Origin: an uncultured bacterium
GTDB taxonomy: Bacteria > Electryoneota > B3-LCP
DNA length: 64,000 bases
Direction: 5' to 3'
NCBI GenBank assembly: GCA_964623265.1
Contig: CAZUTK010000007.1
Span: 168 to 64,167 of the forward strand
The notes beneath the pieces are model-generated. The model had not been told where the DNA came from and searched no databases. It saw nothing but the letters and a program-made list of their open reading frames with translations. Position 1 is the stretch's first letter. Each line of letters begins with the position of its first letter. Shown here piece after piece: positions 1 to 57,822 of this stretch. A program made the position numbers and the translations under genes.

Positions 1-1124
1 AAAATCGCCGAAGATAGATTTGCAACGGAACTATTCCCTGTCATCAGATTATACGATATTTGCGTTTCAACACCGGTTCCAATATAGATAACTCCACAAT
101 AAGTTACAATATTATCAATGAATTGATTACCTTGTACGGTGTATATTCCGTCCCAGAGATTGATACCTGCTCCCCAAACCGAAGTATTTTCAATGAACAG
201 ATTATTTGCAACGACTCCAATCACGCCACTGGAAAGAGTCAACGCGCCGAAACTTTGCGTATTGATATTTCGGATAAACTGATTGTTCTCAACGGTCACT
301 ATGGTTAAATTAGGCAATGCTCCAATAACAAGTCCGGAACCAATGATGAATTGTGAACTATGGTCAGCAATGATATTATCGCAAATCCAGTAGTTTCCTC
401 CTGAGAATAAACCGCAACCCACCGCCGGTGCAAAGTTGTTGAAGAAATGATTATTTAACACGCTGGCATTGTCACAATTAAATAATATGATTCCACCTGC
501 ATAATTGCTGGATGAATCATGGTGGATTTGATTATGCGCAATGACAAGAGCGCTGCTGTCACTGCTGATACCCCCACCGCCTGCAACAGCAAAATTGTTA
601 TATATATAATTGTCATGTATAATAGTTTCGGATTCCGCACCAATATAAATTCCGCCTCCCCAATCAGCACGATTCGAATGGATGATATTGGTTTTTAAGA
701 TCGGGCTTGAATGTCGAATGAAACAGCCTCCACCGTAGGTTTCTGTCGAACCCTGCCACCAGGTGTTTAAAGTCCCTTGACCGCCGGTGATCGTCAATCC
801 GGCGATGAGGGTGGTCGTATCCTGTCCATCACTAACATAGATCACGCTGGCGGAATCGGGGTTGGCGTAATGGCTGCCGTCTACGATTGTGTTCGTAATA
901 TGTGCCGTATCTGCATCCAGAAGATACCAGCTTGATAAAGTCAAATTTAATGGTGGGAAAACGATGTTTTCAAAGTACGTGCCGTCCGCTACGATAACAG
1001 TGTCGAATTCTGATACATTGTTGACAGCTTCCTGGATGGTGGAGTATTCTTCAGGTACATGGTGAATTGCTCCCCATGATGAATGCGAAAATAAAAGAAG
1101 GATCAGCAGAAGAATGAACATCAT
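1..1124 (-). CDS. Secreted parallel beta-helix repeat protein (pectate-lyase/adhesin-like), partial: C-terminus runs off window
   Basis: Uninterrupted minus-strand frame from ATGATG (1124-1119; GGAG 6 nt upstream) to the window edge, so it is absent from the ORF track. N-terminal signal peptide MMFILLLILLLFSHSSWG. Repeated ~22-aa N/G/I-rich units (e.g. NNLFIENTSVWGAGINLWDGIYTVQGNQFIDN) typical of right-handed beta-helix. Confidence 0.6.
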   Translation of the reverse strand, partial: MMFILLLILLLFSHSSWGAIHHVPEEYSTIQEAVNNVSEFDTVIVADGTYFENIVFPPLNLTLSSWYLLDADTAHITNTIVDGSHYANPDSASVIYVSDGQDTTTLIAGLTITGGQGTLNTWWQGSTETYGGGCFIRHSSPILKTNIIHSNRADWGGGIYIGAESETIIHDNYIYNNFAVAGGGGISSDSSALVIAHNQIHHDSSSNYAGGIILFNCDNASVLNNHFFNNFAPAVGCGLFSGGNYWICDNIIADHSSQFIIGSGLVIGALPNLTIVTVENNQFIRNINTQSFGALTLSSGVIGVVANNLFIENTSVWGAGINLWDGIYTVQGNQFIDNIVTYCGVIYIGTGVETQISYNLMTGNSSVANLSSAI

Positions 1125-4913: not shown

Positions 4914-4925
4914 TGATGGCGCCGC

Positions 4926-5999: not shown

Positions 6000-6019
6000 A
6001 TCATAATTGATAGAGGACG

Positions 6020-7553: not shown

Positions 7554-7655
7554 CGAAGTTCTTATGATGGACTTCGATCCGCCTTGCGCTTAAAGCAGCG
7601 GAATGGACAAGCAGCGGCGGATCCGACAATCACGGATCAACGAGAGCGATAAAAA

Positions 7656-42294: not shown

Positions 42295-42295
42295 A

Positions 42296-43228: not shown

Positions 43229-43330
43229 CTTTGGTTCCGAACTCTACCACCCATTCGAGTCTGATATTTCACACAGGATAGACGACTCGCTTGGAAGAAT
43301 GATTCCGCCGGAAGACGGCGCGGTGAATCT

Positions 43331-43858
43331 TCACGCCGCGGCGGCTTCGCTGATCTGCTCGAGCTCCTCGTCGAAGAGGAGATTCTGTATATCCAGGAGG
43401 ATTTTCACCTCGTCGTCGAGATGCCCTAAGCCCGCGACGAAACGGCTGCTTTTCCCTTTTCGCACTTGCGGCGGCGGTTCGATTTTCCCAGCAGGAATGT
43501 CCACGACTTCGGATACGGAATCCACGATCAGCCCGACCGACGCTTCCCGGATATTGACGACGATGATGCAGGTTCGCTCATCGTAGGGTCTCTCTTCCAA
43601 TCCGAAGCGCAAGCGGACGTCAATGACGGGAATCACCTTGCCGCGCAGATTAATGACGCCTTTGACGAAATCCGGCATATCCGGCAGATCCGTCACGTTT
43701 TGAATCCCGATGATTTCGGTCACGTTGCGGATTTCTATGCCGTACTCTTCTTTACCCAGTGCGAAGGTTAAATACTTCCCTTCCTGGATGTCCTGCGATT
43801 CTTGGTTCTCCAGAATCTCTTCGCTTAGTCTGTCATGGTCTGCCATCTTCCGCTCCAT
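43331..43858 (-). CDS. cheW: Chemotaxis coupling protein CheW
   Basis: CheW-like domain (YLTFALGKEEYGIEI ... VINLRGKVIPVIDVR). Start taken at ATG 43858 (MERK.., 7 nt after the cheA stop); the ORF-track extension would overlap cheA. Confidence 0.85.
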   Translation of the reverse strand: MERKMADHDRLSEEILENQESQDIQEGKYLTFALGKEEYGIEIRNVTEIIGIQNVTDLPDMPDFVKGVINLRGKVIPVIDVRLRFGLEERPYDERTCIIVVNIREASVGLIVDSVSEVVDIPAGKIEPPPQVRKGKSSRFVAGLGHLDDEVKILLDIQNLLFDEELEQISEAAAA

Positions 43859-43865
43859 AGTTGTT

Positions 43866-46283
43866 TTATGCCACCGCTGAGGCGCTCTGTCTGGATTTGT
43901 GTTTTGAATATTCTGAGCCCGACTGTTCTTCTCGACAGCGCGCGAGATTGAAAATCCCGGCGATGTCAATGATCAGGCAGATTTCCCCATCACCCAAGAT
44001 CGTGCAGCCGGAAATTCCCGCCAATTCGCCGATGTAGCGCGACAACCCCTTGATCACAATCTGCTGCTGGCCGATCAACTCATCCACGAATAGACAGATG
44101 GACTTCCCCTCGTTTTCCACCACCAGAACCAAACCGTCGGTCAATTCAAGATGATCGGTTTTGTGCTCGAAGATTTCGTGCAGCCGGATCACGGGTATCA
44201 GCGTCCCTCGGATGTTGACCAACTCCTGGCCGTCCACCAGACGAGTAACGTCCTTCGCCTGCGGTCGGAGCGTCTCTTTGATCGAGCCGATGGGGACGAT
44301 GTAACGCGCTTGCCCCACCCGCACCAGCATCCCGTCTATGATCGCCAGCGTCAAGGGGATGCGCAGGACGATGGAAGTCCCTTGTTCCGGGATGCTGCGA
44401 ATATCCACTTTCCCGCGGATGTTCTCGATATTCCGCTTCACCACATCCATCCCGACGCCGCGGCCGGACACATCCGTCACTTTCTCCGCCGTCGAAAAGC
44501 CGGGTTGGAATATGAGTTGATGGACTTCTTCATCCTTCAGATCGGAACCGTCGCCGTGGATCAGCCCTTTTTCCTGCGCCTTCCGGAGAATATGTTCCCG
44601 ATGCAACCCGCGCCCGTCATCTTTGAGAATGATCCAGACTTCGCTGCCGACGTATTTCGCTTCCAGAACGATTTTGCCGACTTCCGGTTTGCCCTGCCGG
44701 ACTCGTTCTTCCGGCGGTTCGATGCCGTGGTCAATCGCGTTCCGAATCAGATGCACCAGAGGATCGTTGATCTGTTCGATGACGGTCTTGTCCACTTCCG
44801 TCTCTTCGCCGATGATCTCTAATTCGACTTTTTTGCCCGCCTTCTGCGCCAGGTCGCGCACCAGACGGATCGTCCGCCGGAAGGTGCCGGAAAGAGGAAT
44901 CATGCGGATGGAGGTCGCGATTCCTTGGATTTCGCGGCTGATTTTCTCCAGCTGGCGCACGGATTTCTCGAAGCGATCCAGGGATGTGCTGATCCCTTTC
45001 AGATCGGGGTTCTGAGCCACCATCGCTTCCGCGATCACCAGCTCGCCAACAAGATCCAGCAGGACATCCAGTTTCTCAATGTCCACGCGGACCGATTGTC
45101 GCTGAGCGCTTCCCGCCGAATCGCTCTGGCGGCGATCTTCCCCCGAACGGCGTTCCGCGCCGGAGCGCCGCTCCGCATTGACAGCGACGGCATTCGCCGT
45201 TTCTGCGGAATCCTGCTTCGCACTTTCTTTTACTTGAACCTTCGCGTTGGAATCCTGTACATCGTCATTCTGTTGTACAGGGGCTTCCGCAGGCGCATGA
45301 TCGGCGGCGGCTTCTTGCAATAAGCTGATCCAGCCTAAGACTCCCGGTATGGCTGGGCTCCTGCCCTGCTCGGATTCGTTCAATGCGCCGCGCAAGACAT
45401 CAATGATTTCCAGCAATAGGGTTAGGACTTCTTTATCTGCAGCGGAAGAGCGATTCTTGATTCTCTCCAGGGTGCTTTCCGCATGATGGCTGAGAGTCTC
45501 CAGATCCGCAAAGCCGAAGAGCCCTGAATTACCTTTCAGGCTGTGCAATGCCCGGAAAGCTTGCGCGGCATATTCCGGATTCTGGGGATCTTTTTCCAGA
45601 TTCAATAGCGCCGTTTCCGCTTGATCCAGATGCTCGTTGGATTCCGCGATAAACTGCTGAATCAATTCCTGAGTAATGTTGAATTGCAGCGATTCGGAAG
45701 ATGCGTTTTCCGCTTCAGTTTGCTTGGGAAGGGGCATATCCGATGTCGTTGTCCGGGCAGCATCGGCTGCGTTTTCTTTTTGGGCGCCTCGGGACTCCGC
45801 CGAATTTTTCCCTTTCTTCTGAACTGCGAGAGGGCTTTCCTGCGGATCGGGGTCTTGAATCGTTTTGATCGCCGCTCGGAGTTCCCCAATCAGCTCTTCC
45901 GACTCCATTTCCATTCCCGAATCCGTGAGCTTTTCTTTCACGCGATCCAGAAGCCTGCGAATGAAATCACAGGTCTTGATCAGCAAATCAACGTGTTCGC
46001 TGCGTAGCGAGCAGGCGCCCTTTCTGAAGAGATCGAGCAGGGTTTCCGCTTCGTGAGTGACTCGGTTGATGCTGCGCAGGCTTAGATAACCGGCGCTGCC
46101 TTTCAGCGAATGAAAGAGGCGGAAGATGCTGTTGATGAGTTCAGGACTGACGCCGCCTTCTTGATCCGATCGCTTCTCGAGCTCGATCAAGCGGGGCTCG
46201 ACTTCCTCCAGCATTTCAAAGCCTTCTTCGATGAAGCCGGCGAGGAGTTCTTCCTGCTCGCGGTCAAGATTCACATCGGTCAT
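43866..46283 (-). CDS. cheA: Chemotaxis histidine kinase CheA with two Hpt (P1) domains
   Basis: Two Hpt motifs (FRLFHSLKGSAGYLSL and FRALHSLKGNSGLFGF). Dimerisation, HATPase_c (G1/G2 boxes) and C-terminal CheW-like P5. ATG at 46283 with GGGGA SD; the ORF-track start at 46310 is a TTG. Confidence 0.9.
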   Translation of the reverse strand: MTDVNLDREQEELLAGFIEEGFEMLEEVEPRLIELEKRSDQEGGVSPELINSIFRLFHSLKGSAGYLSLRSINRVTHEAETLLDLFRKGACSLRSEHVDLLIKTCDFIRRLLDRVKEKLTDSGMEMESEELIGELRAAIKTIQDPDPQESPLAVQKKGKNSAESRGAQKENAADAARTTTSDMPLPKQTEAENASSESLQFNITQELIQQFIAESNEHLDQAETALLNLEKDPQNPEYAAQAFRALHSLKGNSGLFGFADLETLSHHAESTLERIKNRSSAADKEVLTLLLEIIDVLRGALNESEQGRSPAIPGVLGWISLLQEAAADHAPAEAPVQQNDDVQDSNAKVQVKESAKQDSAETANAVAVNAERRSGAERRSGEDRRQSDSAGSAQRQSVRVDIEKLDVLLDLVGELVIAEAMVAQNPDLKGISTSLDRFEKSVRQLEKISREIQGIATSIRMIPLSGTFRRTIRLVRDLAQKAGKKVELEIIGEETEVDKTVIEQINDPLVHLIRNAIDHGIEPPEERVRQGKPEVGKIVLEAKYVGSEVWIILKDDGRGLHREHILRKAQEKGLIHGDGSDLKDEEVHQLIFQPGFSTAEKVTDVSGRGVGMDVVKRNIENIRGKVDIRSIPEQGTSIVLRIPLTLAIIDGMLVRVGQARYIVPIGSIKETLRPQAKDVTRLVDGQELVNIRGTLIPVIRLHEIFEHKTDHLELTDGLVLVVENEGKSICLFVDELIGQQQIVIKGLSRYIGELAGISGCTILGDGEICLIIDIAGIFNLARCREEQSGSEYSKHKSRQSASAVA

Positions 46284-46553
46284 GCTTTCCCCATGGATAT
46301 CGGTTATCAATCATTCTGTTGCTTAGCGAACAGTCTTGCGGATCGCAGAATTTTCCAGCCGATACAAAGGGTATAAAATAGATGATTTCGATGGGTATTC
46401 AAGGAAAAACAGCAATTTCTAAGGGGAATTTCGGATTCGGCGGCGAAGCGGTTAAAATTCACCGGTGACCCGCGTCGCTTCAGAATTAGAATCCATAAGC
46501 ATTTGCGCATGTCCAACACTCCTGCCATTAGAAAAGGATTGACATCATGGGAC

Positions 46554-46615: not shown

Positions 46616-48532
46616 ATGCAACACACCGTCATCGGCACAGCCGGCCACGTGGATCACGGCAAGTCCTCTCTGATCAAGGCGCTCACGGGAACCGATCCCG
46701 ACCGCTTGCAGGAGGAAAAAGAGCGGGAGATGACGATTGATCTTGGGTTCGCGTTCCTCGGGGATCATATCACGTTCATAGACGTTCCCGGCCATGAGAA
46801 GTTCATCAAGAATATGCTTTCCGGCGTGGCGACGGTGGACGCCGTCCTGTTTGTCATCGCCGCGGATGACGGCTTTATGCCTCAGACCGAAGAGCATTTT
46901 GAGATTCTGAAGTTGTTGGAAGTCGAACGCGGCATGGTGGTTCTGACGAAAATTGATATGGTAGATCCCGATTGGCTGGACTTGATGGAAGAGGACATCC
47001 GGGAGCGTCTGGAGGGGTCTTTTCTGGAAAAAGCGCCGATTTACCGCGTGGACAGCTTAAGTTACAAAGGCATTGAAGACCTGAAGAAAGCCATCTTCGA
47101 ACTGGCGGCGAGCCTCCCGCCTCGACCGGAAAAGGGAGTTTTCCGAATGTACGTGGATCGGGTTTTCACGATCCGCGGGGCGGGCACGGTGGTGGCGGGG
47201 ACGGTTTTGGGCGGGCGCGTGAAAACGGGCGAACGCATCGAGCTGCTGCCCAGAGGGATTGAAGTCCGCGTGAAGCGCATCCAGGTGCATAACGTGGAAG
47301 TGCCGGAAGCCCGCACAGGCGAACGGGCGGCGATCAATCTGCAGGGGGTGGAAACTTCGCAGATTGCGCGCGGCGATTTGCTCGCACAAATCGGCTATTT
47401 CAAGCCGACCTATATGATCAATGCGTCCTATCTTCACCTCCGCTCCGCCGCGCGTCCACTTGAAAACCGCACGCGAGTGCGCCTGCATCTCGGCACGGCG
47501 GAATACCTAGCCCGCGCCGTGACTCTGGAAAAAAAGCCGCTGCTTCCCGGCGAGAGCGGCTTCCTGCAGTTGCGCATCGAAGCGCCTGTCGTCTGCGAAA
47601 TCGGGGATCGTTTCGTGATTCGGGATTATTCTCCGAGCCGCACCATCGGCGGAGGCAGAGTCCTGGAAGTGCACCCCAAGAAACTGAAATATCTGCCGTA
47701 CGAAGAGATTGAAGTCCTGGAAGTCCTCGATGCGGGCAGCCCTGCGGATCTGGTGGAACAGCACATCCGCCGCGGCGGCTTCAAGCCGTTCAATATCGAG
47801 ACGCTGGCTAAAGAGCTCTCGCGACCGGTGAATGAAGTCGGCGCTCTGGTCGGAGAACTTTCCGCCGCGGAAAAATTGGTGCGACTGGTGAATCCTACGA
47901 CGAACTGGTTCCTGCACCAATCGGTTTACCAGGATGCGCGGGGTCGGCTTTTAAAAATGCTGGATGAATTTCACCGAAACGCACCTTATCGGCTGGGGAT
48001 GCGGCGTTCCGAGTTGGCGGGGAAACTCTTCGGCAGTGTGGATCGTTCCCTCTACGATGCTTTCCTCGACCAGCTGATTGAGGACGAAGAATTGGATGCT
48101 TCCGGCGAAATCGTTTACCGCCGGGGACACCAAATCCGCTTCGATTCCCGCCAGGAAGCTCTGGCTCAAAAAATTCTCAAGATTTATTGGGATACGGCGT
48201 ATGTAACGCCGGAATTCGAAGAACTCGTTGACCAGTTAGGCGAATCGGCGGAAGAGGTGCGCAAAATCATCAACGGTCTGGTGGACAGTGGGGAATTGAA
48301 AGAATTAGGTATCGGCATCGGGCGCGCTTTAATCTTTCACACCGAAAGAATCGTTCAAGCCCGTGAAATCATTCTGCGGCTCTTCAGCCAGAAGAACGAG
48401 GTCGCCTTTTTCGAGGTGCGGGAAGCTCTCCAGTCCACCCGAAAATTTACGACTCCGATTCTGAATTATTTCGACCAGATAGGATTGACGGTGCGCGTGG
48501 GGGATGGGCGTATGTTGAAAGAGCGCGCCTGA
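46616..48532 (+). CDS. selB: Selenocysteine-specific translation elongation factor SelB
   Basis: N-terminal GTPase ([25 protein letters not shown]) with EF-Tu-like domains II/III. ~250-aa C-terminal winged-helix extension characteristic of SelB. Confidence 0.85.
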
Positions 48533-50615: not shown

Positions 50616-51527
50616 ATGGCTGATCCGACGCAAACGAATCGTCGAAGCCTCAGGTTTCTGCGGATCGCATTGTGGTTTGTTCTGCTGCTTTTGGTGGTTT
50701 TTCAAACATTCCTTGAAGCGCGATCCCAAAAACGGCAGGTTCGAAAACGTTTGAAATCATGCGTGGAACTCTGCGCGCAGCGGTTGGAGAAGAAGAACAG
50801 CGACTTCGGATTCGCTCTGATCGCACTGGTGGAACAGCGCTCGATTCGCGAGGGGTTTGCGCGGTTGAACGAGGAAGGGATCTCCGCAACCTGGGCGCTG
50901 GGCTTTCTGGAAGCTCTGGACGGCGCTACCAGATCTATCATGGTCTCCCATCCAGGGGTAGAAAATCTGGCGTTCCGTTCGCTGGAAGGAATCAAGCTGG
51001 CGGGTTCCGGTGCCGATCGGGATTCCATCACTTATCCGGATCTGCGTTTGCGGATGCAACGTCAGACGATCCGAAGGGAATCTGATCCGTTTACAGAACG
51101 AATCGTCGTGCCCGTTCGCGCCGCCGATGCGAGTCCGGTCGCCTTCTTAACAGCAGACCTCAATCTCAAAGGCTTTTATAGAGAGGTTCTCACCGAGTTC
51201 GATAGTGAATCGGATGCGCTGGTTCTGCTGGCGGATGCATCGGGGAGGAGAATCTGGTCAAACGACGATGAACTTGTCTTAACCGATTTTCGACAGGAAC
51301 TGCGGGAGTTCGAACACAATCGAAAAGTTTTTCTGGCGGAAAGCGCCCTCATCCCCGAGGCGAATCACAGGATTTACGCGGCTATTCCGCAGAATGTGGA
51401 GATCGCCGTGAGCTTCGAATACTTCGCGTGGAACATCGCTGCCATCGCCGTCATCATCTTGCTGTTCTGGTCGTGCGAGTCGGCGATGTTTCGAAGGAGA
51501 CACGCGCCGAAAAAGAGATCTGCGTAG
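50616..51527 (+). CDS. Hypothetical membrane protein with periplasmic sensor-like domain (TM-periplasmic-TM)
   Basis: N-terminal TM (LRIALWFVLLLLVVF). ~230-aa hydrophilic segment. C-terminal TM (IAAIAVIILLFW). Confidence 0.45.
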   Translation: MADPTQTNRRSLRFLRIALWFVLLLLVVFQTFLEARSQKRQVRKRLKSCVELCAQRLEKKNSDFGFALIALVEQRSIREGFARLNEEGISATWALGFLEALDGATRSIMVSHPGVENLAFRSLEGIKLAGSGADRDSITYPDLRLRMQRQTIRRESDPFTERIVVPVRAADASPVAFLTADLNLKGFYREVLTEFDSESDALVLLADASGRRIWSNDDELVLTDFRQELREFEHNRKVFLAESALIPEANHRIYAAIPQNVEIAVSFEYFAWNIAAIAVIILLFWSCESAMFRRRHAPKKRSA

Positions 51528-51845: not shown

Positions 51846-51966
51846 TGACCGGATCCGCCCGGATCGGGCTTGCAAAACGAACAGATTCGTGCGCCGCATC
51901 TCTTGCAAGCGATGGTGCTCAACGTGACTCGGCGAGGTTGACCCGGATTTGCCACGGATATACAAG

Positions 51967-52956
51967 ATGTCATATAGAAAACGGATTCTCACTGCAATCT
52001 TCTATTTTGGAGGAATCACTGTCGCCCCAGCCGGTGCGGGGGTTTTAGGGTTGGGCTTCACTCAGATCAAGGCGGAATATCAGTACACCGATTATTCGCG
52101 TTACACCTACCCCAATCCCATTCTCTTCGAATACCCCAACCAAGATTATCGGCAGCCCGCCCCCTACATCAATGATTTCCCCGAGAATCGGGGATTGATC
52201 AAGGTCACCCAGGGGTTGGGGATCAATGACGCCCTGCTGGCGAAATATCAATATTCCGAGCTGGATGAGAAGAATCACCAGGACTTATTCAATATGAAAT
52301 ACGTGCGCAACCTTTCCGCTTCGACGGAAGCGCACATCAGCGGGCAGATCACGCGCGGCACCGGGGGATTCCTCGGAAAGATGATCGAAGCGGGCGGCAA
52401 GGTGGATTGGGCGGGGTTCGTACTGGCGGAAGCCGCTTACGCCTATTATTCCAATAAGGTGGATACGGCGGGTTCTTCCACCAGCGATGCGCATTCGCTG
52501 GAATTGCAATTGCGGCAGGCGCTTTCGAAGAGCACCGCCTTGCAGGTCAAATGGGCGTATTTTTTCGCCGCCGGCACAAAAGCGGATTTTTTTTCCAACA
52601 CTCTGAGTTTCTGGCTTTCGCAGTGGCTGCCTACGCAGACGGCGGTGCACCTTGAGTGGCGGGAGAACTGGAACGGTCAGCATTTCCGTTCCTGGTCCCC
52701 GGGCATCGAAATTGATCAATATCTCGGCTGGGCGACTCTAGCCACCGTGCGGGTTCGGTTCTATCAAGGACTGCCGGAAGATCCTGCGCAGCTGGAGCTG
52801 CTGCGAGGAAGCAAATTTGAAAGTTGGGCGTTTTCCGGCATCCTGAGTCATCATATCTTCGCCGAGACGGTGGTGATGTTGAAGTATCGGTACTATTGGA
52901 GCGATCAGGATATTCAGATGAACACCTATCTGATCGCCGTGGAGCATATCCTATGA
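51967..52956 (+). CDS. Hypothetical secreted protein (possible beta-barrel OMP)
   Basis: Signal peptide MSYRKRILTAIFYFGGITVAPAGA. Tyr/aromatic-rich. ORF-track start at 51949 is a TTG. Confidence 0.45.
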   Translation: MSYRKRILTAIFYFGGITVAPAGAGVLGLGFTQIKAEYQYTDYSRYTYPNPILFEYPNQDYRQPAPYINDFPENRGLIKVTQGLGINDALLAKYQYSELDEKNHQDLFNMKYVRNLSASTEAHISGQITRGTGGFLGKMIEAGGKVDWAGFVLAEAAYAYYSNKVDTAGSSTSDAHSLELQLRQALSKSTALQVKWAYFFAAGTKADFFSNTLSFWLSQWLPTQTAVHLEWRENWNGQHFRSWSPGIEIDQYLGWATLATVRVRFYQGLPEDPAQLELLRGSKFESWAFSGILSHHIFAETVVMLKYRYYWSDQDIQMNTYLIAVEHIL

Positions 52957-53849
52957 TGCGGCATTCGACGACGGCGTTGAATCAATGCGGTTCGATCCTT
53001 CTCTGGATCATGGCTGTTTTAAGTCTACACGGCTGCGGCGACCCGCCCACCACCCCCGTGGAACAACGAGGTAATATCGAAATCCACGGGATGCTGCTGC
53101 CTCAGAATGCGCCGGCGGATTCGATTTTCGTCGTTCTCGATGGAGATACATTGGGTTATGTTCCCAATCCGCACCTCTGCGCGGGTCTGTATGCCGGTAA
53201 ACATTTTGTTTCCGTAAAAACGGTGGCACTATACCTCGCGGACACGCTGGAATACCTCAGCAGTCCGGCGTACGTCACCGTCACGGCGGGACAGACTTCG
53301 CAGGCGGCGTTCAGTTTGACCACTGAAATTCCTGTTTCCCCGTATGTGGGGTATCGCGCGCCCGATTTTTCCCTGTGCGATCTGAACGGCGATACCGTCA
53401 GACTCTCAGCCCAGATGGGGAAAGTCGTGCTGCTCTACTTCTTCACCGGAACGTGAAATTTCTGCATGGGGACGGAGATTCCGGCGCTTCAAAAGCAGAT
53501 CAGCGACAGCTTCCGGGTGGTGACCGCACCGGATACCCTGGTCGAAGTGATCGCCTTAAACGAAGATCGCAGTGTCGCATTTTTATCGCAATACGCGCAA
53601 TTTGTAGGACCCTGGCCCGGAGGCGGAAACAAGGATGTCGTCATCACTTTTCCGATCCTGTTTGACAGTACCGGTGCCTCTTTTGAAGAATACGATGCGA
53701 TGAATCTCCCGTCCATCTTGTTGGTGGATCAGACCCGCAAGATCATTCTGCGTTACGACGGCGCCGCCAGCGCCGATCCCTTTTGGGATCATTTCGCTGA
53801 AATCATCGCCGGGATTCATGCGCTTTTAGAGAGCCCACCTGAGAATTGA
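52953..53849 (+). CDS. Periplasmic TlpA/ResA-like thioredoxin-fold lipoprotein, putative selenoprotein (UxxC; in-frame UGA at 53457-53459)
   Basis: ATGATG start overlaps the upstream stop. Lipoprotein signal LSLHGC. Thioredoxin-like domain APDFSLCDLNGDTVRLSAQMGKVVLLYFFTGT-[TGA]-NFCMGTEIPAL. The downstream same-frame ORF (53466-53849) continues the TlpA fold (LPSILLVDQTRKIILRY). TGA falls exactly at the first Cys of the CxxC redox motif. Confidence 0.65.
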
Positions 53850-53862
53850 ACGATGGATCACT

Positions 53863-54369
53863 ATGAGAAAATCAATGTACGGTATCCTCAGCCTGCTCAG
53901 TATAGCAGGGACGCTCGCCTTCCAGACGCGGCCGGCGGTCGCAGGTCTTCCTGTCGGTGCGCAGGCCCCTGCTTTTACCTTGACAACAACGGCGGATAAA
54001 ACGGTCTCCCTTTCCGATTTCGCGGGTAAGATCGTCATCCTGCATTTTTGGAAATCCAACTGAAGGCAGTGCCATGAGGAGATTCCTCATTTATTGAAAA
54101 TCCGCGAGCAATATCCGGAAGATAAAGTTGTCATCCTTGCGATGAACGCAATCAACCCCGCCAAGCAGGCGGAGGCTGAAGCCAAGCGCTATAACATCCC
54201 CTTCGATGTGGTGGTCTGCCGGGGTGCCGGCGTGATCCGCGATTACGAGGTCACCAAACTGCCGCAAATGTTCATCATTGACGGTAAAGGCATCATCCAG
54301 GCGAGCGAGTTGTTTATGCAAGCCGATCAGATCAAAGGGATATTGGATAAATTGCTGGCCGCCCCATGA
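53863..54369 (+). CDS. Periplasmic TlpA/ResA-like thioredoxin-fold protein, putative selenoprotein (UxxC; in-frame UGA at 54061-54063)
   Basis: Signal peptide MRKSMYGILSLLSIAGTLAFQ. FAGKIVILHFWKSN-[TGA]-RQCHEEIPHL aligns with the TlpA consensus FWASWCGPCRAEMPHL, with UGA at the first Cys. Same-frame continuation 54094-54369 completes the fold (LPQMFIIDGKGII). Confidence 0.7.
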
Positions 54370-54416
54370 CCACTCGTTCGGCGTTACCGGGCATCATCGT
54401 ACACATTGAAATCGTA

Positions 54417-54536
54417 TGAGTAAACCGAAGCTCATTTTCTTCATCTTGCTGACGCTGGCGATCGCCGCTTCTCTCGTCTGGGGGATCCTCGAGGGGCATC
54501 CGCAGGATATCCGCATGGAAGCATCCAGCCTCTGAC
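54417..54536 (+). CDS. Possible 39-aa single-TM small protein
   Basis: ATG at 54417, MSKPKLIFFILLTLAIAASLVWGILEGHPQDIRMEASSL. Below the ORF-track size cut-off. Sits between the selenoprotein gene and the GltD::NapH gene. Confidence 0.25.
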
Positions 54537-54649
54537 TGAGCTGCATCGGGCTCGGATGAGCTCTTCCAGCTGCGGATGGGGGAAGTGCGCCCGTGGGCAT
54601 TTTCCCCGATGGATTTTTCTCGCCTGTTTCAGAATCCCTGAGACGATTT

Positions 54650-57052
54650 ATGACTGGATCGAATGCAGATAGATACGCACCGAACTCAACGCCGCCTGCG
54701 GCGCCCTGCATGACGCATTGCCTGCAGGGTACGGATATCCGAACCGTTCTGCAGCTGGTGGCGAAGGTAGAGAGGGGCGAAAAGCCTCCGGATGAAGCCT
54801 TTGAAGAAGCCTGGCGCATCATCGTCGAGAAAAATCCGCTGCCTTCCGTCTGCGGGCGGGTCTGCCCTCATCCCTGCGAAGGCTACTGTCTGCGCAGCCA
54901 AGTGGATGAACCGGTCGCCGTCAACCATATCGAACGCTTCATCGGGGATTGGGGGCTGGCGCACGGTTTCAAGTTCACGAAACTCACTTCGGAGCGTCAG
55001 CTAGAAAAAGTGGCGATCGTCGGTTCCGGTCCCGCCGGATTATCTTGCGCCTATCACCTTGCGCGCCGCGGTTACGCCATAACCGTCTTCGAAGCCTTCC
55101 CCAAAGCCGGCGGCATGCTCCGCTACGGCATCCCCCCCTACCGTTTGCCCCGGCACATATTAGACGCGGAGATCGAACGGATTCTCGAGTTAGGGATTGA
55201 ACTGCGGTTGAATACGGCCGTCGGCAAAGAGATCCCTCTGGAACGGATTCAGGCGGACTATAATGCCGTTTTCATCGGCATAGGCGCTCAAAAAGCTGTA
55301 AGATTGGGGTGTCGCGGAGAAGAATGTCAAGGGGTATACGGCGGAGTGGAATTTCTGCGGTTGGTCAACAGCGGTCAACCTGTGAATATCGGAGGGACGG
55401 TCGTCGTAGTGGGCGGCGGGAACACCGCTGTAGATGCCGCCAGAACCGCCCGTCGTCTGAATCCCGAGGCGGCTGTAACTGTTCTCTACCGCCGCACTCG
55501 TGCGGAAATGCCCGCGATCGCGGAAGAAATCGAAGCCGCTCGGGAAGAAGGCGTCGAGTTTCGTTTCCTCGCCGCGCCGCTGGAGATCCAAGGCGAAAAC
55601 GGGCGATTGGCGCGCGTCCTCTGTCAGCAGATGCAACTTGCGGAGCCCGACGAATCGGGGCGCCGAAAACCAGTGCCGATCGCGGGGGAAACCTTCGTCT
55701 TATCCGCGGATACTTTGATCGCCGCCGTTTCTCAAGAGACGGACTGGGAAGGCTTGGAAACCTTGAAGGATGTCTCGAAGCCGTCTTCCAAGACGGATTC
55801 CAATGCAAGAACGGCTGATCGGGTTTATGCAGGCGGCGATGTAAAGGAGCCGGGATTAGTCGCCGAATCCATCCTTCAAGGCAGACAGGCGGCCGAGGAG
55901 ATGCACGCCCGTTTCCGCGGTTTGGAATTGCCGCCAGTTGCGGAAGTCGAGTCAATCTCGCCGGAACGAATGCACCTCGACGCCGTGCGCCCATCCCCTC
56001 GGCACCAGCCTAAGCAAATCGAGGTTTCCCAGCGCATCCAGCAGCCCTGGAAAGAAGTCTCTGCCACGCTTTCCTGCGAAAATGCTGTTCGGGAAGCCGG
56101 GCGATGCATCGGCTGCGGTGAAAGCTTCATCAAGCATCCTAAAACGCATCCCATCCATATTTTTCGGCGCGTCACTCAGATCGGCGTGGGGGCGTTTCTC
56201 TTTAACAGTTACTTTGCCGTGTTTTCCACGAAGACGCTCTACGACGGATCCTTGCGCAACGTCTGCGTCCCCGGCTTGAATTGCCACTCTTGTCCCACCG
56301 CTTTGATGGGGTGTCCTATCGGGATCGCTCAGCACTTCGCCGCGATGCATACCTTTCCCTGGTTTTTGATCGGCTTTTTAGGAGTCATCGGAGTGATTTC
56401 CGGTCGTTTCACCTGCGGATGGCTCTGCCCCTGGGGATTGGTGCAAGATCTGTTGTATCGCTTCAAGAAGCTGACCGTGCGCATTCCAAAATTTATGAAT
56501 TATCTAAAATACTCCATTCTCGTGGTCGTGGTGATCATCATACCTTACATCACATACGAGCACTGGTTCAGCAAGCTCTGCCCCTGCGGAGCGCTGATCG
56601 CGGCGATTCCTTGGGCGATCTGGAACCCTATGGATCCTGTTCTAGGCGAACCATATATCGCACCCGGCATGATCGGGACGATGTTCTGGTTGAAGATGTG
56701 GATCCTGGGCGTTTTTTTGGTGCTGTTTTTGTTCATCAAACGGCCCTTCTGCCGCACAATTTGCCCTCTGGGAGCCACCTATGCGTTGTTCAACCGCGTC
56801 TCGCTGATTTCCGTGAAGGTGGGGGAGGGCTGCGTGGACTGCGGTCAATGCCGCGCCGTCTGCCCTGTGGACCTCAATGTCCGTCGGGAAGCCAACAGCG
56901 AAGCCTGCATCAAGTGTCTGGAATGCACCCAGTGTCAGCGCATCCGGTTCTACTGGAATCGGTTCTGGCGGTTGCCGGCGCGATTGCATGGGAAACGGCG
57001 CAGGAAATTCGAGGCGATTCCGGATCCCGTCATTCCTGTTCCCGCAGAATAG
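54650..57052 (+). CDS. Fusion protein: GltD-like NAD(P)H-dependent FAD/Fe-S oxidoreductase + NapH/MauN/RdxA-type membrane polyferredoxin
   Basis: N-terminal ~470 aa: glutamate-synthase-small-subunit pattern (PSVCGRVCPHPCEGYC; VAIVGSGPAGL; GGMLRYGIPPYRLP; second NAD fold VVVVGGGNTAVD). C-terminal ~330 aa: 6 TM with CPWGL and CRTICPLG motifs plus a 2x[4Fe-4S] CxxCxxCxxxCP pair (CVDCGQCRAVCP; CIKCLECTQC). Start uncertain (ORF-track GTG 54593; ATG 54650 or 54710). Confidence 0.65.
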   Translation: MTGSNADRYAPNSTPPAAPCMTHCLQGTDIRTVLQLVAKVERGEKPPDEAFEEAWRIIVEKNPLPSVCGRVCPHPCEGYCLRSQVDEPVAVNHIERFIGDWGLAHGFKFTKLTSERQLEKVAIVGSGPAGLSCAYHLARRGYAITVFEAFPKAGGMLRYGIPPYRLPRHILDAEIERILELGIELRLNTAVGKEIPLERIQADYNAVFIGIGAQKAVRLGCRGEECQGVYGGVEFLRLVNSGQPVNIGGTVVVVGGGNTAVDAARTARRLNPEAAVTVLYRRTRAEMPAIAEEIEAAREEGVEFRFLAAPLEIQGENGRLARVLCQQMQLAEPDESGRRKPVPIAGETFVLSADTLIAAVSQETDWEGLETLKDVSKPSSKTDSNARTADRVYAGGDVKEPGLVAESILQGRQAAEEMHARFRGLELPPVAEVESISPERMHLDAVRPSPRHQPKQIEVSQRIQQPWKEVSATLSCENAVREAGRCIGCGESFIKHPKTHPIHIFRRVTQIGVGAFLFNSYFAVFSTKTLYDGSLRNVCVPGLNCHSCPTALMGCPIGIAQHFAAMHTFPWFLIGFLGVIGVISGRFTCGWLCPWGLVQDLLYRFKKLTVRIPKFMNYLKYSILVVVVIIIPYITYEHWFSKLCPCGALIAAIPWAIWNPMDPVLGEPYIAPGMIGTMFWLKMWILGVFLVLFLFIKRPFCRTICPLGATYALFNRVSLISVKVGEGCVDCGQCRAVCPVDLNVRREANSEACIKCLECTQCQRIRFYWNRFWRLPARLHGKRRRKFEAIPDPVIPVPAE

Positions 57053-57156
57053 AGACTTATCGTGGAAAAAGATTCTTCCTCGGGAACTTTGTTTTTCAGC
57101 AGCGGGTTAAGATCACGAAAAGAAAGACAATATCTGCATAATCACAAGAGGTGCAA

Positions 57157-57822
57157 ATGAAGCGAATTTTCCCCATTCTCGGGCTGGCGGTCTTGTTTTC
57201 CGCCGCCTTGATCACGCTGGCGATCACCGGTGAAACGGACGTTTCCAAGGATCCCGTCTGCGGTATGGAAGTCAATCCGGTGGAAACCGCGTTCCATCTC
57301 GACACGGAGAAAGGAACGGTTTACTTCTGCAGTCAGTACTGTTTGGAAAAATTTCAGGCAAATCCCGCCGCTTATATAGCGCCTGCTGTTGATGCGAAGA
57401 AAGCGGAGAAGACGTCCGCAGCGGAAGGATGCCGCGGTCATGAAGGGCATGCTGCATCCTCGGCTGAGAGGCATTCGCATTCCGCTGCCTCCGACTGCGA
57501 AGGAAAGTGCGGACAGACGAAAATTCAGGCGGTGAATGATTTCCACAAGAAGATGGCTCCTTTGGAAGAATGCCTGCAAAAAGGCGATTTCGACGTTTTG
57601 AAGTCCGCCGTTGCGGATCTCATTTCCGCCAAAGAAGCTATCTTGAAAGCGGAATGTCCTGCAGGGGTTCAAAAGGAAGCATTCGATGCGGCGAGAGCGG
57701 AATTCGGCGGCAAAGTAGATGCGCTCGCCGCAGCGGCTGAAACCGGTGACAAAGAGGCTCTCGCAAAGGCGTTCCAGGAAATGCACTCCGCCTATGCGGC
57801 TCTGGATGCCAGCGCGCGCTGA
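57157..57822 (+). CDS. Secreted YHS/TRASH-domain metal-binding protein with His/Cys-rich segment
   Basis: AAGAGGTG SD. Signal peptide. YHS motif DPVCGMEV ... YFCSQYCLEKFQANPAAY. CRGHEGH ... HSHSAASDCEGKCG metal-ligand-rich stretch. Ala/Glu-rich helical tail. Confidence 0.65.
   Translation: MKRIFPILGLAVLFSAALITLAITGETDVSKDPVCGMEVNPVETAFHLDTEKGTVYFCSQYCLEKFQANPAAYIAPAVDAKKAEKTSAAEGCRGHEGHAASSAERHSHSAASDCEGKCGQTKIQAVNDFHKKMAPLEECLQKGDFDVLKSAVADLISAKEAILKAECPAGVQKEAFDAARAEFGGKVDALAAAAETGDKEALAKAFQEMHSAYAALDASAR

What the first reader, a model, noticed from the sequence alone, without database searches (positions are those of the whole stretch)
52953..54369. Two tandem periplasmic TlpA-like thioredoxin-fold genes, each interrupted by an in-frame TGA exactly at the first Cys of CxxC: candidate UxxC selenoproteins
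Seen in sequence:
- In both genes the frame splits into two same-frame ORFs separated only by TGA. The TGA falls where the TlpA/ResA consensus FW-x-x-W-C-x-x-C has its nucleophilic Cys: gene 1 reads ...LLYFFTGT-U-NFCMGTEIPAL; gene 2 reads ...ILHFWKSN-U-RQCHEEIPHL.
- The downstream halves continue the thioredoxin fold, so each is a single protein of ~300 and ~170 aa with a signal peptide.
- A bona fide selB lies 4.4 kb upstream (46616-48532).
Established knowledge: Sec-for-Cys replacement in CxxC thiol-disulfide oxidoreductases is a recognised selenoprotein class. Two independent paralogs sharing the same interruption at the active site make a sequencing error or pseudogenisation unlikely. Gene callers that terminate at UGA would miss or fragment both genes.
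Basis: partly seen in the sequence, partly recalled or inferred. Interest (0 to 1): 0.8.

Follow-up and report, generated by a model that had tools for sequence, protein, structure and literature searches.

The report
Tandem selenocysteine ResA-like redox genes
Two neighbouring genes for exported thioredoxin-fold redox proteins almost certainly use their internal TGA to encode selenocysteine at the active site.

Summary
Gene 1 (52953-53849) and gene 2 (53863-54369) each carry one in-frame TGA (53454, 54061), and it aligns with the first Cys of the ResA/TlpA CxxC.

The selenoprotein reading is strongly supported:
- The TGA is kept in every orthologous locus found: 14/14 for gene 1 and 17/17 for gene 2, down to about 50% identity.
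- Both halves are under purifying selection; dN/dS downstream of the TGA is 0.06-0.07.
- Each TGA is followed by a conserved hairpin with a G-first apical loop 17-20 nt away, with compensatory base changes and suppressed synonymous variation.
- A bona fide selB lies 4.4 kb upstream.
- TGA is also the commonest ordinary stop codon here, so the genetic code is not reassigned.

This is a known kind. [quoted passage not shown] The gene 1 ortholog is not in that list.

New here: a conserved 47-aa membrane-anchored ORF (54416-54559) reading ...EASSL-U-LSC-IGLG, with its own covarying hairpin. All three precede a GltD/NapH-fusion oxidoreductase. selA, selD and tRNA-Sec are not in the window.

The parts
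46616..48532 (+). selB, the selenocysteine-specific elongation factor
   Evidence: TIGR00475 selB scores 347 bits against a cut-off of 242. Pfam finds GTP_EFTU, Beta-barrel_SelB, SelB-wing_2 and SelB-wing_3. It is syntenic in L082, and a selB also lies near the cluster in L101.
51949..52956 (+). Conserved 335-aa protein of unknown family with an N-terminal hydrophobic segment, possibly an outer-membrane protein. Its stop overlaps the gene 1 start (ATGA).
   Evidence: No Pfam, NCBIfam or PDB match. A roughly 330-360-aa ORF sits directly upstream of gene 1 in L082, L088, L090, L099 and L101. The outer-membrane assignment is inference only; the AlphaFold2 model failed.
52953..53849 (+). Gene 1: a 298-aa lipoprotein-like ResA/TlpA-like thioredoxin-fold protein. 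It has an N-terminal domain of about 110 aa and the active site U-N-F-C.
   Evidence: Translation. AhpC-TSA/Redoxin domain at residues 132-271, spanning the TGA. Alignment to 2yp6 and ResA. Orthologs in 13 other loci. dN/dS against L083 is 0.13 upstream and 0.07 downstream of the TGA.
53454..53456 (+). Gene 1 Sec codon (TGA)
   Evidence: TGA in 14 of 14 loci that hold the gene. It aligns with the first Cys of CxxC.
53469..53487 (+). Gene 1 SECIS-like hairpin. The core is CGGA-GAU-UCCG with a weaker extension, and the loop lies at +24..26 from the U of UGA.
   Evidence: The three pairs nearest the loop are invariant and the fourth core pair flips C-G to G-C in L101. Four pairs carry double changes, 83% of cells are paired, and 0 of 500 shuffles reach the score. 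The MFE of the 39-nt context is -12.6 kcal/mol. Third-codon-position identity is 0.86-0.88 here against 0.45-0.65 elsewhere in the gene.
53863..54369 (+). Gene 2: a 168-aa secreted ResA/TlpA-like thioredoxin-fold protein with the active site U-R-Q-C.
   Evidence: Translation. AhpC-TSA domain at residues 31-147, spanning the TGA. Best PDB match is ResA 4nmu at 4e-18. It is 64% identical to the published LCP-89 B3_LCP 'UGC-containing Prx-like protein'. dN/dS downstream of the TGA is 0.06.
54061..54063 (+). Gene 2 Sec codon (TGA)
   Evidence: TGA in 17 of 17 loci. The metagenome loci were retrieved with peptide patterns that lie downstream of the TGA, so the sample is not biased towards TGA.
54074..54090 (+). 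Gene 2 SECIS-like hairpin AUGAGGA-GAU-UCCUCAU. It has a 7-bp stem, and the loop lies at +21..23.
   Evidence: 99% of cells are paired in 14 distinct sequences. Compensatory changes are A-U to C-G in five sequences and A-U to G-C in one, and 0 of 500 shuffles reach the score. The hairpin alone folds at -7.0 kcal/mol. A 67-nt fold has z = -2.5.
54416..54559 (+). Third candidate selenoprotein, not in the finding. It is a 47-aa peptide with one N-terminal transmembrane helix and the C-terminus ...EASSL-U-LSC-IGLG-stop. The Sec codon is at 54533-54535.
   Evidence: The reading frame, the TGA, the L[SAD]C-IG[LVI]G tail and the stop are conserved in all 14 loci that cover the region. Only 39-aa forms truncated at the TGA were found among 1.84 billion representative proteins. 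There is a weak, sub-threshold match to NCBIfam CD1871A_fam, a family of small CXXC proteins.
54548..54563 (+). SECIS-like hairpin of the small gene, GGGCUC-GGAU-GAGCUC. The loop lies at +22..25, and the 3' arm covers the stop codon and the first 3'-UTR bases.
   Evidence: 100% of cells are paired in 11 distinct sequences. The pair at columns 19-28 occurs as A-U, C-G, G-U and G-C, and 0 of 500 shuffles reach the score. MFE is -7.4 kcal/mol.
54656..57052 (+). Fusion oxidoreductase of about 800 aa. It joins a GltD-like NAD(P)H/FAD/Fe-S domain to a NapH/MauN-like four-helix membrane domain with two 4Fe-4S motifs. The start codon is uncertain.
   Evidence: Pfam Fer4_20, Pyr_redox_2 and Fer4_5. NCBIfam PRK12771 at 483 bits, napH at residues 502-762, and a weak match to diclust_near_Sec. 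It follows the three TGA genes in every locus long enough to reach it (L001, L082-L084, L088, L090, L092-L093, L098-L099 and L101). The Cys motifs are invariant and the hydrophobic segments are mapped.
57151..57822 (+). YHS-domain protein with an N-terminal hydrophobic anchor or signal and a His/Cys-rich stretch. It is a conserved downstream neighbour.
   Evidence: Pfam YHS at 36 bits against a cut-off of 30.3. YHS genes occupy the same position in L082, L083 and L099.

Best explanation
Gene 1 and gene 2 are intact genes for exported ResA/TlpA-like thiol:disulfide oxidoreductases. In both, the nucleophilic first Cys of the CxxC is replaced by selenocysteine, giving UNFC and URQC.

During translation the UGA is read as Sec. 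A short hairpin 17-20 nt downstream, with an apical loop beginning in G, would recruit SelB-GTP-Sec-tRNA(Sec). SelB is encoded 4.4 kb upstream.

Gene 1 is probably lipid-anchored, and gene 2 is probably soluble in the periplasm.

The two genes belong to a conserved operon found in FCB-group bacteria related to candidate division LCP-89. The gene order is: unknown 335-aa envelope protein, gene 1, gene 2, a 47-aa membrane-anchored U-x-x-C peptide, a GltD/NapH-fusion Fe-S flavoprotein, and a YHS metal-binding protein.

Shown here:
- conservation of the TGA in all orthologs;
- purifying selection on both sides of the TGA;
- hairpin covariation;
- the Cys/Sec pairing with homologs;
- the identity of SelB;
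- conserved synteny.

Inferred, not shown:
- actual Sec insertion;
- export and membrane topology;
- that the membrane oxidoreductase and the small selenopeptide feed electrons to the two periplasmic selenoproteins.
For: 1. Each protein has a single thioredoxin-fold domain running across the TGA. U aligns with the first Cys of the CxxC in solved ResA and Etrx-like structures, and the cis-Pro 'LP' also aligns.

2. TGA sits at the same codon in every ortholog found: gene 1 in 14 of 14 loci and gene 2 in 17 of 17. These come from ENA, Logan, JGI and NCBI assemblies. The JGI loci were retrieved with patterns lying downstream of the TGA.

3. dN/dS against the closest relative is 0.07 (gene 1) and 0.06 (gene 2) downstream of the TGA. 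Upstream it is 0.13 and 0.35.

4. The hairpins fit the published bSECIS model (criteria in PMC13188914). Loops are 3 nt and begin with G. Stems have at least 4 bp. Spacing is 20 nt for gene 1 and 17 nt for gene 2. Compensatory changes are present: gene 2 has two covarying pairs and 99% of cells paired; gene 1 has four pairs with double changes. In both, 0 of 500 shuffles reach the observed score, and slid-partner controls drop to 20-57% paired.

5. Third-codon-position identity peaks at 0.88 in the 8-12 codons after the UGA. Elsewhere in the genes it is mostly 0.45-0.77.

6. selB passes its equivalog cut-off.

7. TGA is the stop of 17 of 35 long ORFs in the window, so the code is not reassigned.

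8. The gene 2 ortholog of LCP-89 bacterium B3_LCP, the same contig as L099, is published as a selenoprotein. That genome also has a Sec-containing SelD (PMC12013277 supplement; 64% identity).
Against: - There is no tRNA-Sec, selA or selD in the 64-kb window or in the fetched loci, so the rest of the Sec machinery is unverified for this genome.
- Rfam gives no hit.
- The gene 2 hairpin alone folds at -7.0 kcal/mol, just short of the -7.5 of the bSECIS model. The second loop base is A rather than the commoner G or U.
- The extended stem of gene 1 is imperfect: only 83% of cells are paired, and the window's own copy has mismatches.
- The window-only folds of the gene 1 region are not better than shuffles (z = +0.5 and -1.0).
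- There are no protein-level data.
- The operon-level electron-relay idea rests only on gene order, predicted topology and conserved Cys residues.
Confidence: 0.9

Rival explanations
1. The TGAs are sequencing or assembly errors, or recent pseudogenising mutations. The genes would then be dead or really carry Cys codons.
For: A single-base change from TGT or TGC gives TGA. Gene callers split both genes into fragments (P0026 of 167 aa and P0001 of 93 aa).
Against: The same TGA is present in all 14-17 independent assemblies from four sources, at amino-acid identities down to about 50%. dN/dS downstream of the TGA is 0.06-0.07. Three adjacent genes share the feature.
Confidence: 0.01
2. UGA is a true stop. 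The cell would make only the N-terminal fragments, or N- and C-terminal halves as separate polypeptides, and the conserved hairpins would serve another role such as mRNA stability or translational coupling.
For: An ATG lies four codons after the gene 1 TGA in the window, and a TTG lies ten codons after the gene 2 TGA. Hairpins near stop codons can be regulatory.
Against: The downstream start codons are not conserved: position +4 of gene 1 is Ile in most orthologs. Cutting a thioredoxin fold immediately before its CxxC would remove the active site. The C of UxxC and the whole downstream domain are under strong purifying selection in frame with the upstream part. The hairpin position and its G-first loop match the bSECIS model, and selB is adjacent.
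Confidence: 0.03
3. UGA is recoded, but not as selenocysteine. Near-cognate read-through would insert Cys or Trp, or Sec would be inserted only facultatively, depending on selenium supply.
For: From general knowledge, not tested here: near-cognate read-through of UGA, for example by tRNA-Trp, is known in bacteria. The Sec machinery other than SelB is not visible in the window.
Against: SelB has no known role other than Sec delivery (PMC12013277 uses it as the signature of the Sec trait). SECIS-like hairpins covary. Relatives in LCP-89 encode SelD and other selenoproteins. TGA is the commonest ordinary stop in the window.
Confidence: 0.05

Closest known systems
Prx-like / 'UGC-containing Prx-like' (TlpA disulfide reductase family) selenoproteins of the Zhang/Gladyshev catalogues (PMC1088965, PMC2398784, PMC13188914, PMC12013277)
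   Same: They share the AhpC/TSA-Redoxin fold (PF00578). Sec replaces the first Cys of a thioredoxin-type redox motif. A bSECIS hairpin follows the UGA. Cys-containing homologs are widespread. The LCP-89 B3_LCP ortholog of gene 2 is itself listed under this name.
   Different: The motif here is U-x-x-C (URQC, UNFC), not U-G-C. Gene 1 carries an extra N-terminal domain of about 110 aa and a lipobox. Its ortholog is absent from the published B3_LCP list of four selenoproteins.
ResA / TlpA / CcmG (DsbE) / StoA extracytoplasmic thiol-disulfide reductases
   Same: These are the best sequence matches among solved structures: ResA 4nmu at 4e-18 and 1st9 at 3e-14. The CxxC and cis-Pro positions align. 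The proteins here have N-terminal export or anchor signals.
   Different: Scores are far below the NCBIfam cut-offs: ResA subfamily 87 and 50 bits against 170, and TlpA 32 against 230. Sec replaces Cys. No ccdA/dsbD, cytochrome-c maturation or Sco genes are among the genes of this operon or its immediate neighbours that were classified here. Instead there is a GltD/NapH-fusion oxidoreductase.
NCBIfam selenoprotein-specific ResA-like models: TUGYCR-motif thioredoxin-fold (seleno)protein NF053656, and ResA-like WAxxUGC motif protein NF041054
   Same: These are thioredoxin-fold proteins related to ResA with Sec in the active-site motif.
   Different: Gene 2 scores 26.6 against 100 and 24.9 against 300. 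Gene 1 gives no hit. They are therefore not members.
CD1871A family CXXC motif-containing small proteins (NCBIfam NF040920), and TsoA, the 'LULAXC motif selenoprotein' (NF045695)
   Same: The 47-aa peptide matches the 38-position CD1871A profile from end to end. It has a redox motif a few residues from the C-terminus. Its L-U-L-[SA]-C string resembles the TsoA motif name.
   Different: CD1871A scores are 10-19 bits against a cut-off of 32. TsoA gives no hit at all, even at E up to 10, and the Cys spacing differs (UxxC against UxxxC). The source paper for TsoA could not be read.
E. coli fdhF SECIS, the textbook bacterial SECIS
   Same: It is a hairpin immediately 3' of the UGA, inside the ORF, with a G-containing apical loop roughly 20 nt from the UGA. 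From memory, the fdhF loop GGUC lies at +22..25. Here the loops GAU, GAU and GGAU lie at +24..26, +21..23 and +22..25.
   Different: The stems here are much shorter (4-8 bp), no bulged U is evident, and the loop sequence differs. SelB binding was not tested.

Membership tests
Bacterial selenoprotein gene (SelB/bSECIS-dependent UGA decoding) | In-frame UGA inside an otherwise conserved ORF, with conservation on both sides | tested here: met
   dN/dS downstream of the TGA is 0.06-0.07.
Bacterial selenoprotein gene (SelB/bSECIS-dependent UGA decoding) | Cys/Sec pair: homologs carry Cys at the aligned position | tested here: met
   ResA 4nmu and 1st9, chain 2yp6 and P0003 all have CxxC at this position. 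This is not met for the 47-aa peptide, for which no Cys form was found.
Bacterial selenoprotein gene (SelB/bSECIS-dependent UGA decoding) | TGA-containing orthologs in other organisms | tested here: met
   Gene 1 in 14 of 14 loci, gene 2 in 17 of 17 and the small ORF in 14 of 14.
Bacterial selenoprotein gene (SelB/bSECIS-dependent UGA decoding) | bSECIS consensus (PMC13188914 Fig. 2): 3-9-nt loop, upper stem of at least 4 bp, G in the first two loop positions, 16-37 nt from the UGA, MFE of -7.5 kcal/mol or lower | tested here: met
   The loops are GAU, GAU and GGAU. The stems have 4-8, 7 and 6 bp. The spacings are 20, 17 and 18 nt. All three hairpins covary. The energy criterion is borderline for the minimal hairpins: -7.0 for gene 2 and -7.4 for the small gene. 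Gene 1 reaches -12.6 in its extended context.
Bacterial selenoprotein gene (SelB/bSECIS-dependent UGA decoding) | SelB encoded in the genome | tested here: met
   TIGR00475 scores 347 bits against a cut-off of 242.
Bacterial selenoprotein gene (SelB/bSECIS-dependent UGA decoding) | selA, selD and tRNA-Sec present in the genome | not testable with these tools
   None lies in the window or in the fetched loci, and the rest of the genome is not available. LCP-89 relatives have a Sec-containing SelD.
Bacterial selenoprotein gene (SelB/bSECIS-dependent UGA decoding) | Selenium actually incorporated into the protein | not testable with these tools
   This needs 75Se labelling or mass spectrometry.
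TlpA/ResA/CcmG-like thioredoxin-fold oxidoreductases | Thioredoxin-fold (AhpC-TSA/Redoxin) domain with a CxxC-type motif and an aligned cis-Pro | tested here: met
   Pfam scores are above the gathering cut-off in both proteins.
TlpA/ResA/CcmG-like thioredoxin-fold oxidoreductases | Scores above the curated ResA, TlpA, DsbE or StoA cut-offs | tested here: not met
   ResA 87.1 and 49.5 against 170, TlpA 32.4 against 230, DsbE 37.8 against 123, and StoA 52.4 against 210. The proteins are related to these named subfamilies but are not members of them.
TlpA/ResA/CcmG-like thioredoxin-fold oxidoreductases | Extracytoplasmic location (signal peptide, lipobox or membrane anchor) | tested here: inconclusive
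   Judged by inspection only. Gene 1 has a conserved L-x-[GS]-C-G after a hydrophobic stretch. Gene 2 has an n-region, an h-region and AVA|G. No dedicated predictor was available.
'UGC-containing Prx-like' / UGC TlpA-family selenoproteins | U-G-C active-site motif | tested here: not met
   The motifs are URQC and UNFC. The authors of PMC12013277 nevertheless file the 64%-identical B3_LCP ortholog of gene 2 under this name.
NCBIfam TUGYCR (NF053656) and WAxxUGC_long (NF041054) selenoprotein families | Score above the curated cut-off | tested here: not met
   26.6 against 100 and 24.9 against 300 for gene 2. Gene 1 gives no hit.
CD1871A family small CXXC proteins (for the 47-aa peptide) | Score above the curated cut-off of 32 bits | tested here: not met
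   10.3-19.2 bits in four of the five orthologs tested and no hit in the fifth.

The most novel reading that the evidence does not exclude
The conserved cluster may be an undescribed three-selenoprotein envelope redox module. Its gene order is: unknown envelope protein, Sec-lipoprotein ResA-like, Sec-periplasmic ResA-like, 47-aa membrane-anchored U-x-x-C peptide, GltD/NapH-fusion Fe-S flavoprotein, YHS protein.

In this reading the fusion enzyme takes electrons from cytoplasmic NAD(P)H. It passes them across the membrane through its invariant Cys-rich loops, which are predicted to face outward, to the tiny selenopeptide. The selenopeptide then passes them to the two Sec-ResA-like reductases. 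This would do the job that CcdA/DsbD does for ordinary ResA/TlpA, possibly for metal handling given the YHS partner.

The 47-aa peptide would be a new selenoprotein family with no detectable Cys form.
Probability: 0.2. Interest if true: 0.7.

Novelty: new member of a known kind. Interest (0 to 1): 0.42.

Why it matters
Both genes are split into fragments in public annotation, so a whole redox operon is invisible to standard pipelines.

The window confirms that LCP-89-like FCB bacteria use selenocysteine in exported ResA-like reductases. It adds one family member, gene 1, that a recent dedicated selenoproteome survey of a related genome did not list.

It also points to a very small membrane selenopeptide and a NAD(P)H-linked NapH-type partner. 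If that partnership is real, it would be a new way of powering periplasmic thiol/selenol redox chemistry.

For annotation, the practical outcome is three genes to be re-called with Sec.

Tried and rejected
- **Rfam gathering scan and ARAGORN on the window:** no SECIS family, no tRNA-Sec and no tRNA at all. ARAGORN on eight related loci found only a tRNA-Gly.
- **Genome-contig scan with gene 2:** it returned only distant Cys homologs at 38% identity or less. Neither the source genome nor the close orthologs were found that way.
- **The look-up of encoding contigs:** P0026 was not on record, and P0002 had no DNA.
- **The listing of cluster members:** gave no organism names.
- **AlphaFold2:** the gene 1 N-terminal fragment (three-sequence alignment) gave pLDDT 36.6. 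The 335-aa upstream protein (single sequence) gave pLDDT 30.8. Both are unusable, so no fold search was run.
- **PDB sequence search of the 335-aa protein:** nothing meaningful.
- **Covariance model of the gene 2 hairpin, run over the window with filters off:** only the gene 2 site itself is significant. The gene 1 core scores 10.5 bits (E 1.2). No further SECIS of this type was found.
- **Six-frame scan for other TGA-split ORFs:** nothing else selenoprotein-like.
- **Fused-protein idea:** I first considered that the small ORF and the oxidoreductase might be one protein with two UGAs, because they share a frame in the window. I rejected this because in L082 an indel puts them in different frames while each stays conserved.
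- **Representative-library search with the U-to-C peptide:** The 39-aa N-terminal part found only two truncated forms.
- **Papers not held:** Haft & Tolstoy 2025 and Haft & Gwadz 2023. 'CD1871A' appears in no searchable paper.
- **Genetic-code reassignment:** rejected, because TGA ends 17 of 35 long ORFs.


Full report
**1. Observation**

Gene 1 runs 52953-53849 on the + strand and has 298 codons. Its start ATG overlaps the stop of the upstream gene as ATGA. It has one in-frame TGA at 53454-53456, in the context LLYFFTGT-U-NFCMGTEIPAL.

Gene 2 runs 53863-54369 and has 168 codons. It has one in-frame TGA at 54061-54063, in the context ILHFWKSN-U-RQCHEEIPHL.

With the TGA read as Cys, a single AhpC-TSA/Redoxin domain covers residues 132-271 of gene 1 and 31-147 of gene 2. 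The domain therefore runs straight across the TGA.

HMMER alignments to solved structures place the TGA on the first Cys of the CxxC. The structures are ResA 4nmu and 1st9 and the thioredoxin-family chain 2yp6. The cis-Pro 'LP' also aligns.

The two proteins are distant paralogs, 27% identical over 128 residues.

selB at 46616-48532 passes the TIGR00475 equivalog cut-off, 347 bits against 242, and has the SelB winged-helix domains.

A TGA flanked by open frame is not rare in itself. One search lists about 85 such sites in the six frames, nearly all of them off-frame noise. What sets these sites apart is the domain across the TGA and the evidence below.

**2. Orthologs**

Protein searches returned fragments that end or begin at the TGA. 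P0026, P0027 and P0028 (165-170 aa) are N-terminal pieces of gene 1. P0001 and P0002 (92-93 aa) are C-terminal pieces of gene 2.

Their contigs are L001 and L082-L086. A metagenome scan added twelve JGI contigs, L087-L098. Its search patterns, NAINPA[KG]Q and A[EA]AE..RY, lie downstream of the TGA and so cannot bias the sample towards TGA. Two further loci came from the oxidoreductase neighbour. [quoted passage not shown] L101 is an ENA contig.

TGA occupies the same codon in gene 1 in 14 of 14 loci and in gene 2 in 17 of 17. This holds down to the most distant locus, L101, whose motifs are U-F-D-C and U-R-E-C.

No ortholog with Cys was seen. The nearest Cys-containing homologs are 39% identical or less.

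Against the closest relative, L083, dN/dS is as follows:

| Gene | Upstream of TGA | Downstream of TGA |
|---|---|---|
| Gene 1 | 0.13 | 0.07 |
| Gene 2 | 0.35 (divergent signal peptide) | 0.06 |

The part after the TGA is therefore translated and constrained. This excludes sequencing error and pseudogenisation.

**3. RNA signal**

Each TGA is followed by a short hairpin.

- **Gene 2:** AUGAGGA-GAU-UCCUCAU at 54074-54090, with the loop at +21..23 from the U of UGA.
- **Gene 1:** a core CGGA-GAU-UCCG within 53469-53487, with the loop at +24..26 and a weaker extension.

Covariation counts for the two hairpins:

| Gene | Distinct sequences | Cells paired | Compensatory changes | Shuffles reaching score | Slid controls paired |
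|---|---|---|---|---|---|
| Gene 2 | 14 | 99% | A-U to C-G in five; A-U to G-C in one | 0 of 500 | 30-57% |
| Gene 1 | 12 | 83% | four pairs with double changes, including a C-G to G-C flip in the core | 0 of 500 | 21-57% |

Several compensating changes are synonymous on one side and amino-acid-changing on the other. An example is CAU to CGU paired with CAU to CAC in L101. That is the pattern expected when RNA pairing is what selection preserves.

Third-codon-position identity peaks at 0.86-0.88 in the 8-12 codons after the UGA in both genes. Elsewhere it is mostly 0.45-0.77, including in stretches with equal or higher amino-acid conservation.

The hairpins meet the published bSECIS model (PMC13188914 Fig. 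2). That model requires a 3-9-nt loop, at least 4 bp of stem, a G in the first two loop positions, and 16-37 nt of spacing.

The energy criterion is borderline for the minimal gene 2 hairpin, -7.0 against -7.5 kcal/mol. The window-only folds of gene 1 are unremarkable against shuffles.

Rfam has no hit.

**4. Not a recoded genome**

TGA terminates 17 of the 35 long ORFs in the window. These include selB, the gene upstream of gene 1, and gene 1 itself.

**5.

Between gene 2 and the large oxidoreductase lies a 39-codon ORF (54416-54532). It ends in TGA (54533-54535), continues in frame as L-S-C-I-G-L-G, and then reaches a second stop (54557-54559).

The full reading is MSKPKLIFFILLTLAIAASLVWGILEGHPQDIRMEASSL-U-LSC-IGLG. 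That gives one N-terminal hydrophobic helix and a U-x-x-C motif seven residues from the end.

The frame, the TGA, the tail L[SAD]C-IG[LVI]G and the stop are conserved in all 14 loci that reach this region. The few differences in the tail behave like coding changes: AGC to GCC (Ser to Ala), AUC to AUA (synonymous), and CUC, GUC or AUC (Leu, Val or Ile).

A hairpin GGGNUC-GGAU-GANNCC (54548-54563, loop at +22..25) is paired in 100% of cells. One pair occurs as A-U, C-G, G-U and G-C. Its 5' base is a first codon position, and its 3' base lies just beyond the stop. None of 500 shuffles reaches the score.

A full HMMER scan of 1.84 billion representative proteins with the 39-aa N-terminal part found only two relatives. 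Both are exactly 39 aa long, meaning they are truncated at the TGA. No Cys form is known.

NCBIfam gives only a sub-threshold, end-to-end match to the CD1871A family of small CXXC proteins, at 10-19 bits against a cut-off of 32. TsoA gives no hit.

I first considered that this ORF is the N-terminus of the oxidoreductase, since the two share a frame in the window. In L082 an indel separates the frames while both stay conserved, so they are separate genes.

I rate this ORF a probable selenoprotein, at about 0.8.

**6. Context and organism**

The following order is conserved in L082, L083 and L099, and as far as each contig reaches in L088, L090, L093 and L101:

1. a 330-360-aa protein of no known family;
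2. gene 1;
3. gene 2;
4. the small gene;
5. an oxidoreductase of about 800 aa;
6. a YHS-domain protein;
7. YchF.

The oxidoreductase fuses two parts. The first is a GltD-like NAD(P)H/FAD/Fe-S domain (PRK12771, 483 bits). The second is a NapH/MauN-like membrane domain with two CxxxCP motifs and two 4Fe-4S motifs.

Simple hydropathy plus the position of the cytoplasmic domains places two invariant Cys groups in outward-facing loops. They are C-x5-C-x2-C-x6-C and L-C-P-C. This is inference, not a tested topology.

The YHS protein has an N-terminal anchor or signal and a His/Cys-rich stretch.

Named full-length homologs of the oxidoreductase come from three lineages:
- candidate division LCP-89, 60% identical, with the same synteny from DapF to the MFS transporter;
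- Calditrichota;
- Ca. Hatepunaea.

The source organism is therefore an FCB-group bacterium close to LCP-89. This rests on homolog names and synteny only.

In Ca. Hatepunaea (L100) the oxidoreductase stands alone, without the selenoprotein genes.

selB is adjacent to the cluster in the window and in L082. It lies about 5 kb away in L101.

**7. Mechanism**

Shown here: the genetic signals for Sec decoding, and the ResA-like fold with U at the nucleophile position.

Inferred for gene 1 and gene 2: SelB binds the hairpins and delivers Sec-tRNA(Sec) at the UGA. Gene 1 is lipid-anchored, and gene 2 is soluble outside the cytoplasmic membrane. Both act as selenol/thiol-disulfide reductases.

Inferred for the operon: ResA/TlpA-type proteins normally draw electrons from CcdA/DsbD (general knowledge, not tested here). 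No such gene is among the operon genes classified here. One hypothesis is therefore that the NAD(P)H-linked NapH-type fusion and the membrane selenopeptide supply the electrons. The YHS partner hints at metal handling. I give this about 0.2.

**8. Comparison with what is known**

Sec-for-Cys replacement in AhpC/TSA-fold 'Prx-like' and TlpA-family proteins is a long-established class. It appears in three sources read here:
- Prx-like UxxC families in PMC1088965;
- Prx-like 1-3 and the UGC-containing family in PMC2398784;
- Table 1 of the 2026 review PMC13188914.

The deep-Sep paper (PMC12013277) lists four selenoproteins for LCP-89 bacterium B3_LCP. One of them, filed as 'UGC-containing Prx-like protein', is the L099 ortholog of gene 2...HFWKSNURQCHAEIPHL... 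It is 64% identical to the window protein.

Gene 2 is therefore already known at both family and ortholog level.

The gene 1 ortholog and the small peptide are in the same contig. Neither appears in that list or anywhere in that paper's supplements.

Neither gene reaches the cut-offs of ResA, TlpA, DsbE or StoA. Neither reaches those of the two NCBIfam Sec-specific ResA-like models, TUGYCR and WAxxUGC.

**9. Verdict**

On novelty, gene 2 is already catalogued and gene 1 is a new member of a known kind. The operon and the 47-aa selenopeptide are the parts worth following up.

The remaining gaps are the rest of the Sec machinery, which lies outside the window, and any protein-level evidence.

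Noticed in passing
window 54416-54559 (+); TGA at 54533-54535; hairpin 54548-54563: A conserved 47-aa membrane-anchored ORF reads ...EASSL-U-LSC-IGLG-stop and has its own covarying SECIS-like hairpin. It is a third candidate selenoprotein, absent from the finding. No Cys form was found and it has no family above threshold.
   Followed up: yes
window 54656-57052 (+): This is a fusion of a GltD-like NAD(P)H/FAD/Fe-S domain with a NapH/MauN-like membrane polyferredoxin. It always follows the three TGA genes. Invariant Cys groups (C-x5-C-x2-C-x6-C and L-C-P-C) fall in loops predicted to face outward. It has a weak match to NCBIfam 'diclust_near_Sec'.
   Followed up: partly
window 57151-57822 (+): A YHS-domain protein with an N-terminal anchor or signal and a His/Cys-rich stretch. 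It is conserved directly downstream of the oxidoreductase and hints at a metal-related role for the operon.
   Followed up: partly
window 51949-52956 (+) and 50616-51527 (+): Two proteins of about 300-335 aa with no Pfam or NCBIfam match; the 335-aa one also has no PDB match. An ORF of the same size (about 330-360 aa) always precedes gene 1, its stop overlaps the gene 1 start in the window (ATGA), and the L101 copy ends in Phe like an outer-membrane protein. The AlphaFold2 single-sequence model failed.
   Followed up: partly
L099 (NCBI GCA_005223185.1, NJBN01000004.1) 4255-5860: The published selenoproteome of LCP-89 bacterium B3_LCP lists four genes (PMC12013277). It includes the gene 2 ortholog but omits the gene 1 ortholog (U at 4759) and the small peptide (U at 5836), both on the same contig.
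   Followed up: yes
L100 (Ca. Hatepunaea meridiana, GCA_030765125.1) 5300-8388: A 55%-identical ortholog of the fusion oxidoreductase stands alone here, with an AT-rich non-coding stretch upstream and no ResA-like or small UxxC genes. The association with the selenoprotein genes is therefore not universal.
   Followed up: partly
L090 6846-6849: In this relative the stop of the small selenopeptide gene overlaps the ATG of the oxidoreductase ORF (ATGA), which suggests translational coupling. In the window the two genes are about 100 nt apart.
   Followed up: no
window 39852-46310 (-): A chemotaxis gene cluster lies immediately upstream of selB on the opposite strand. It comprises an HDOD protein, CheD, CheB, CheR and CheA.
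   Followed up: no
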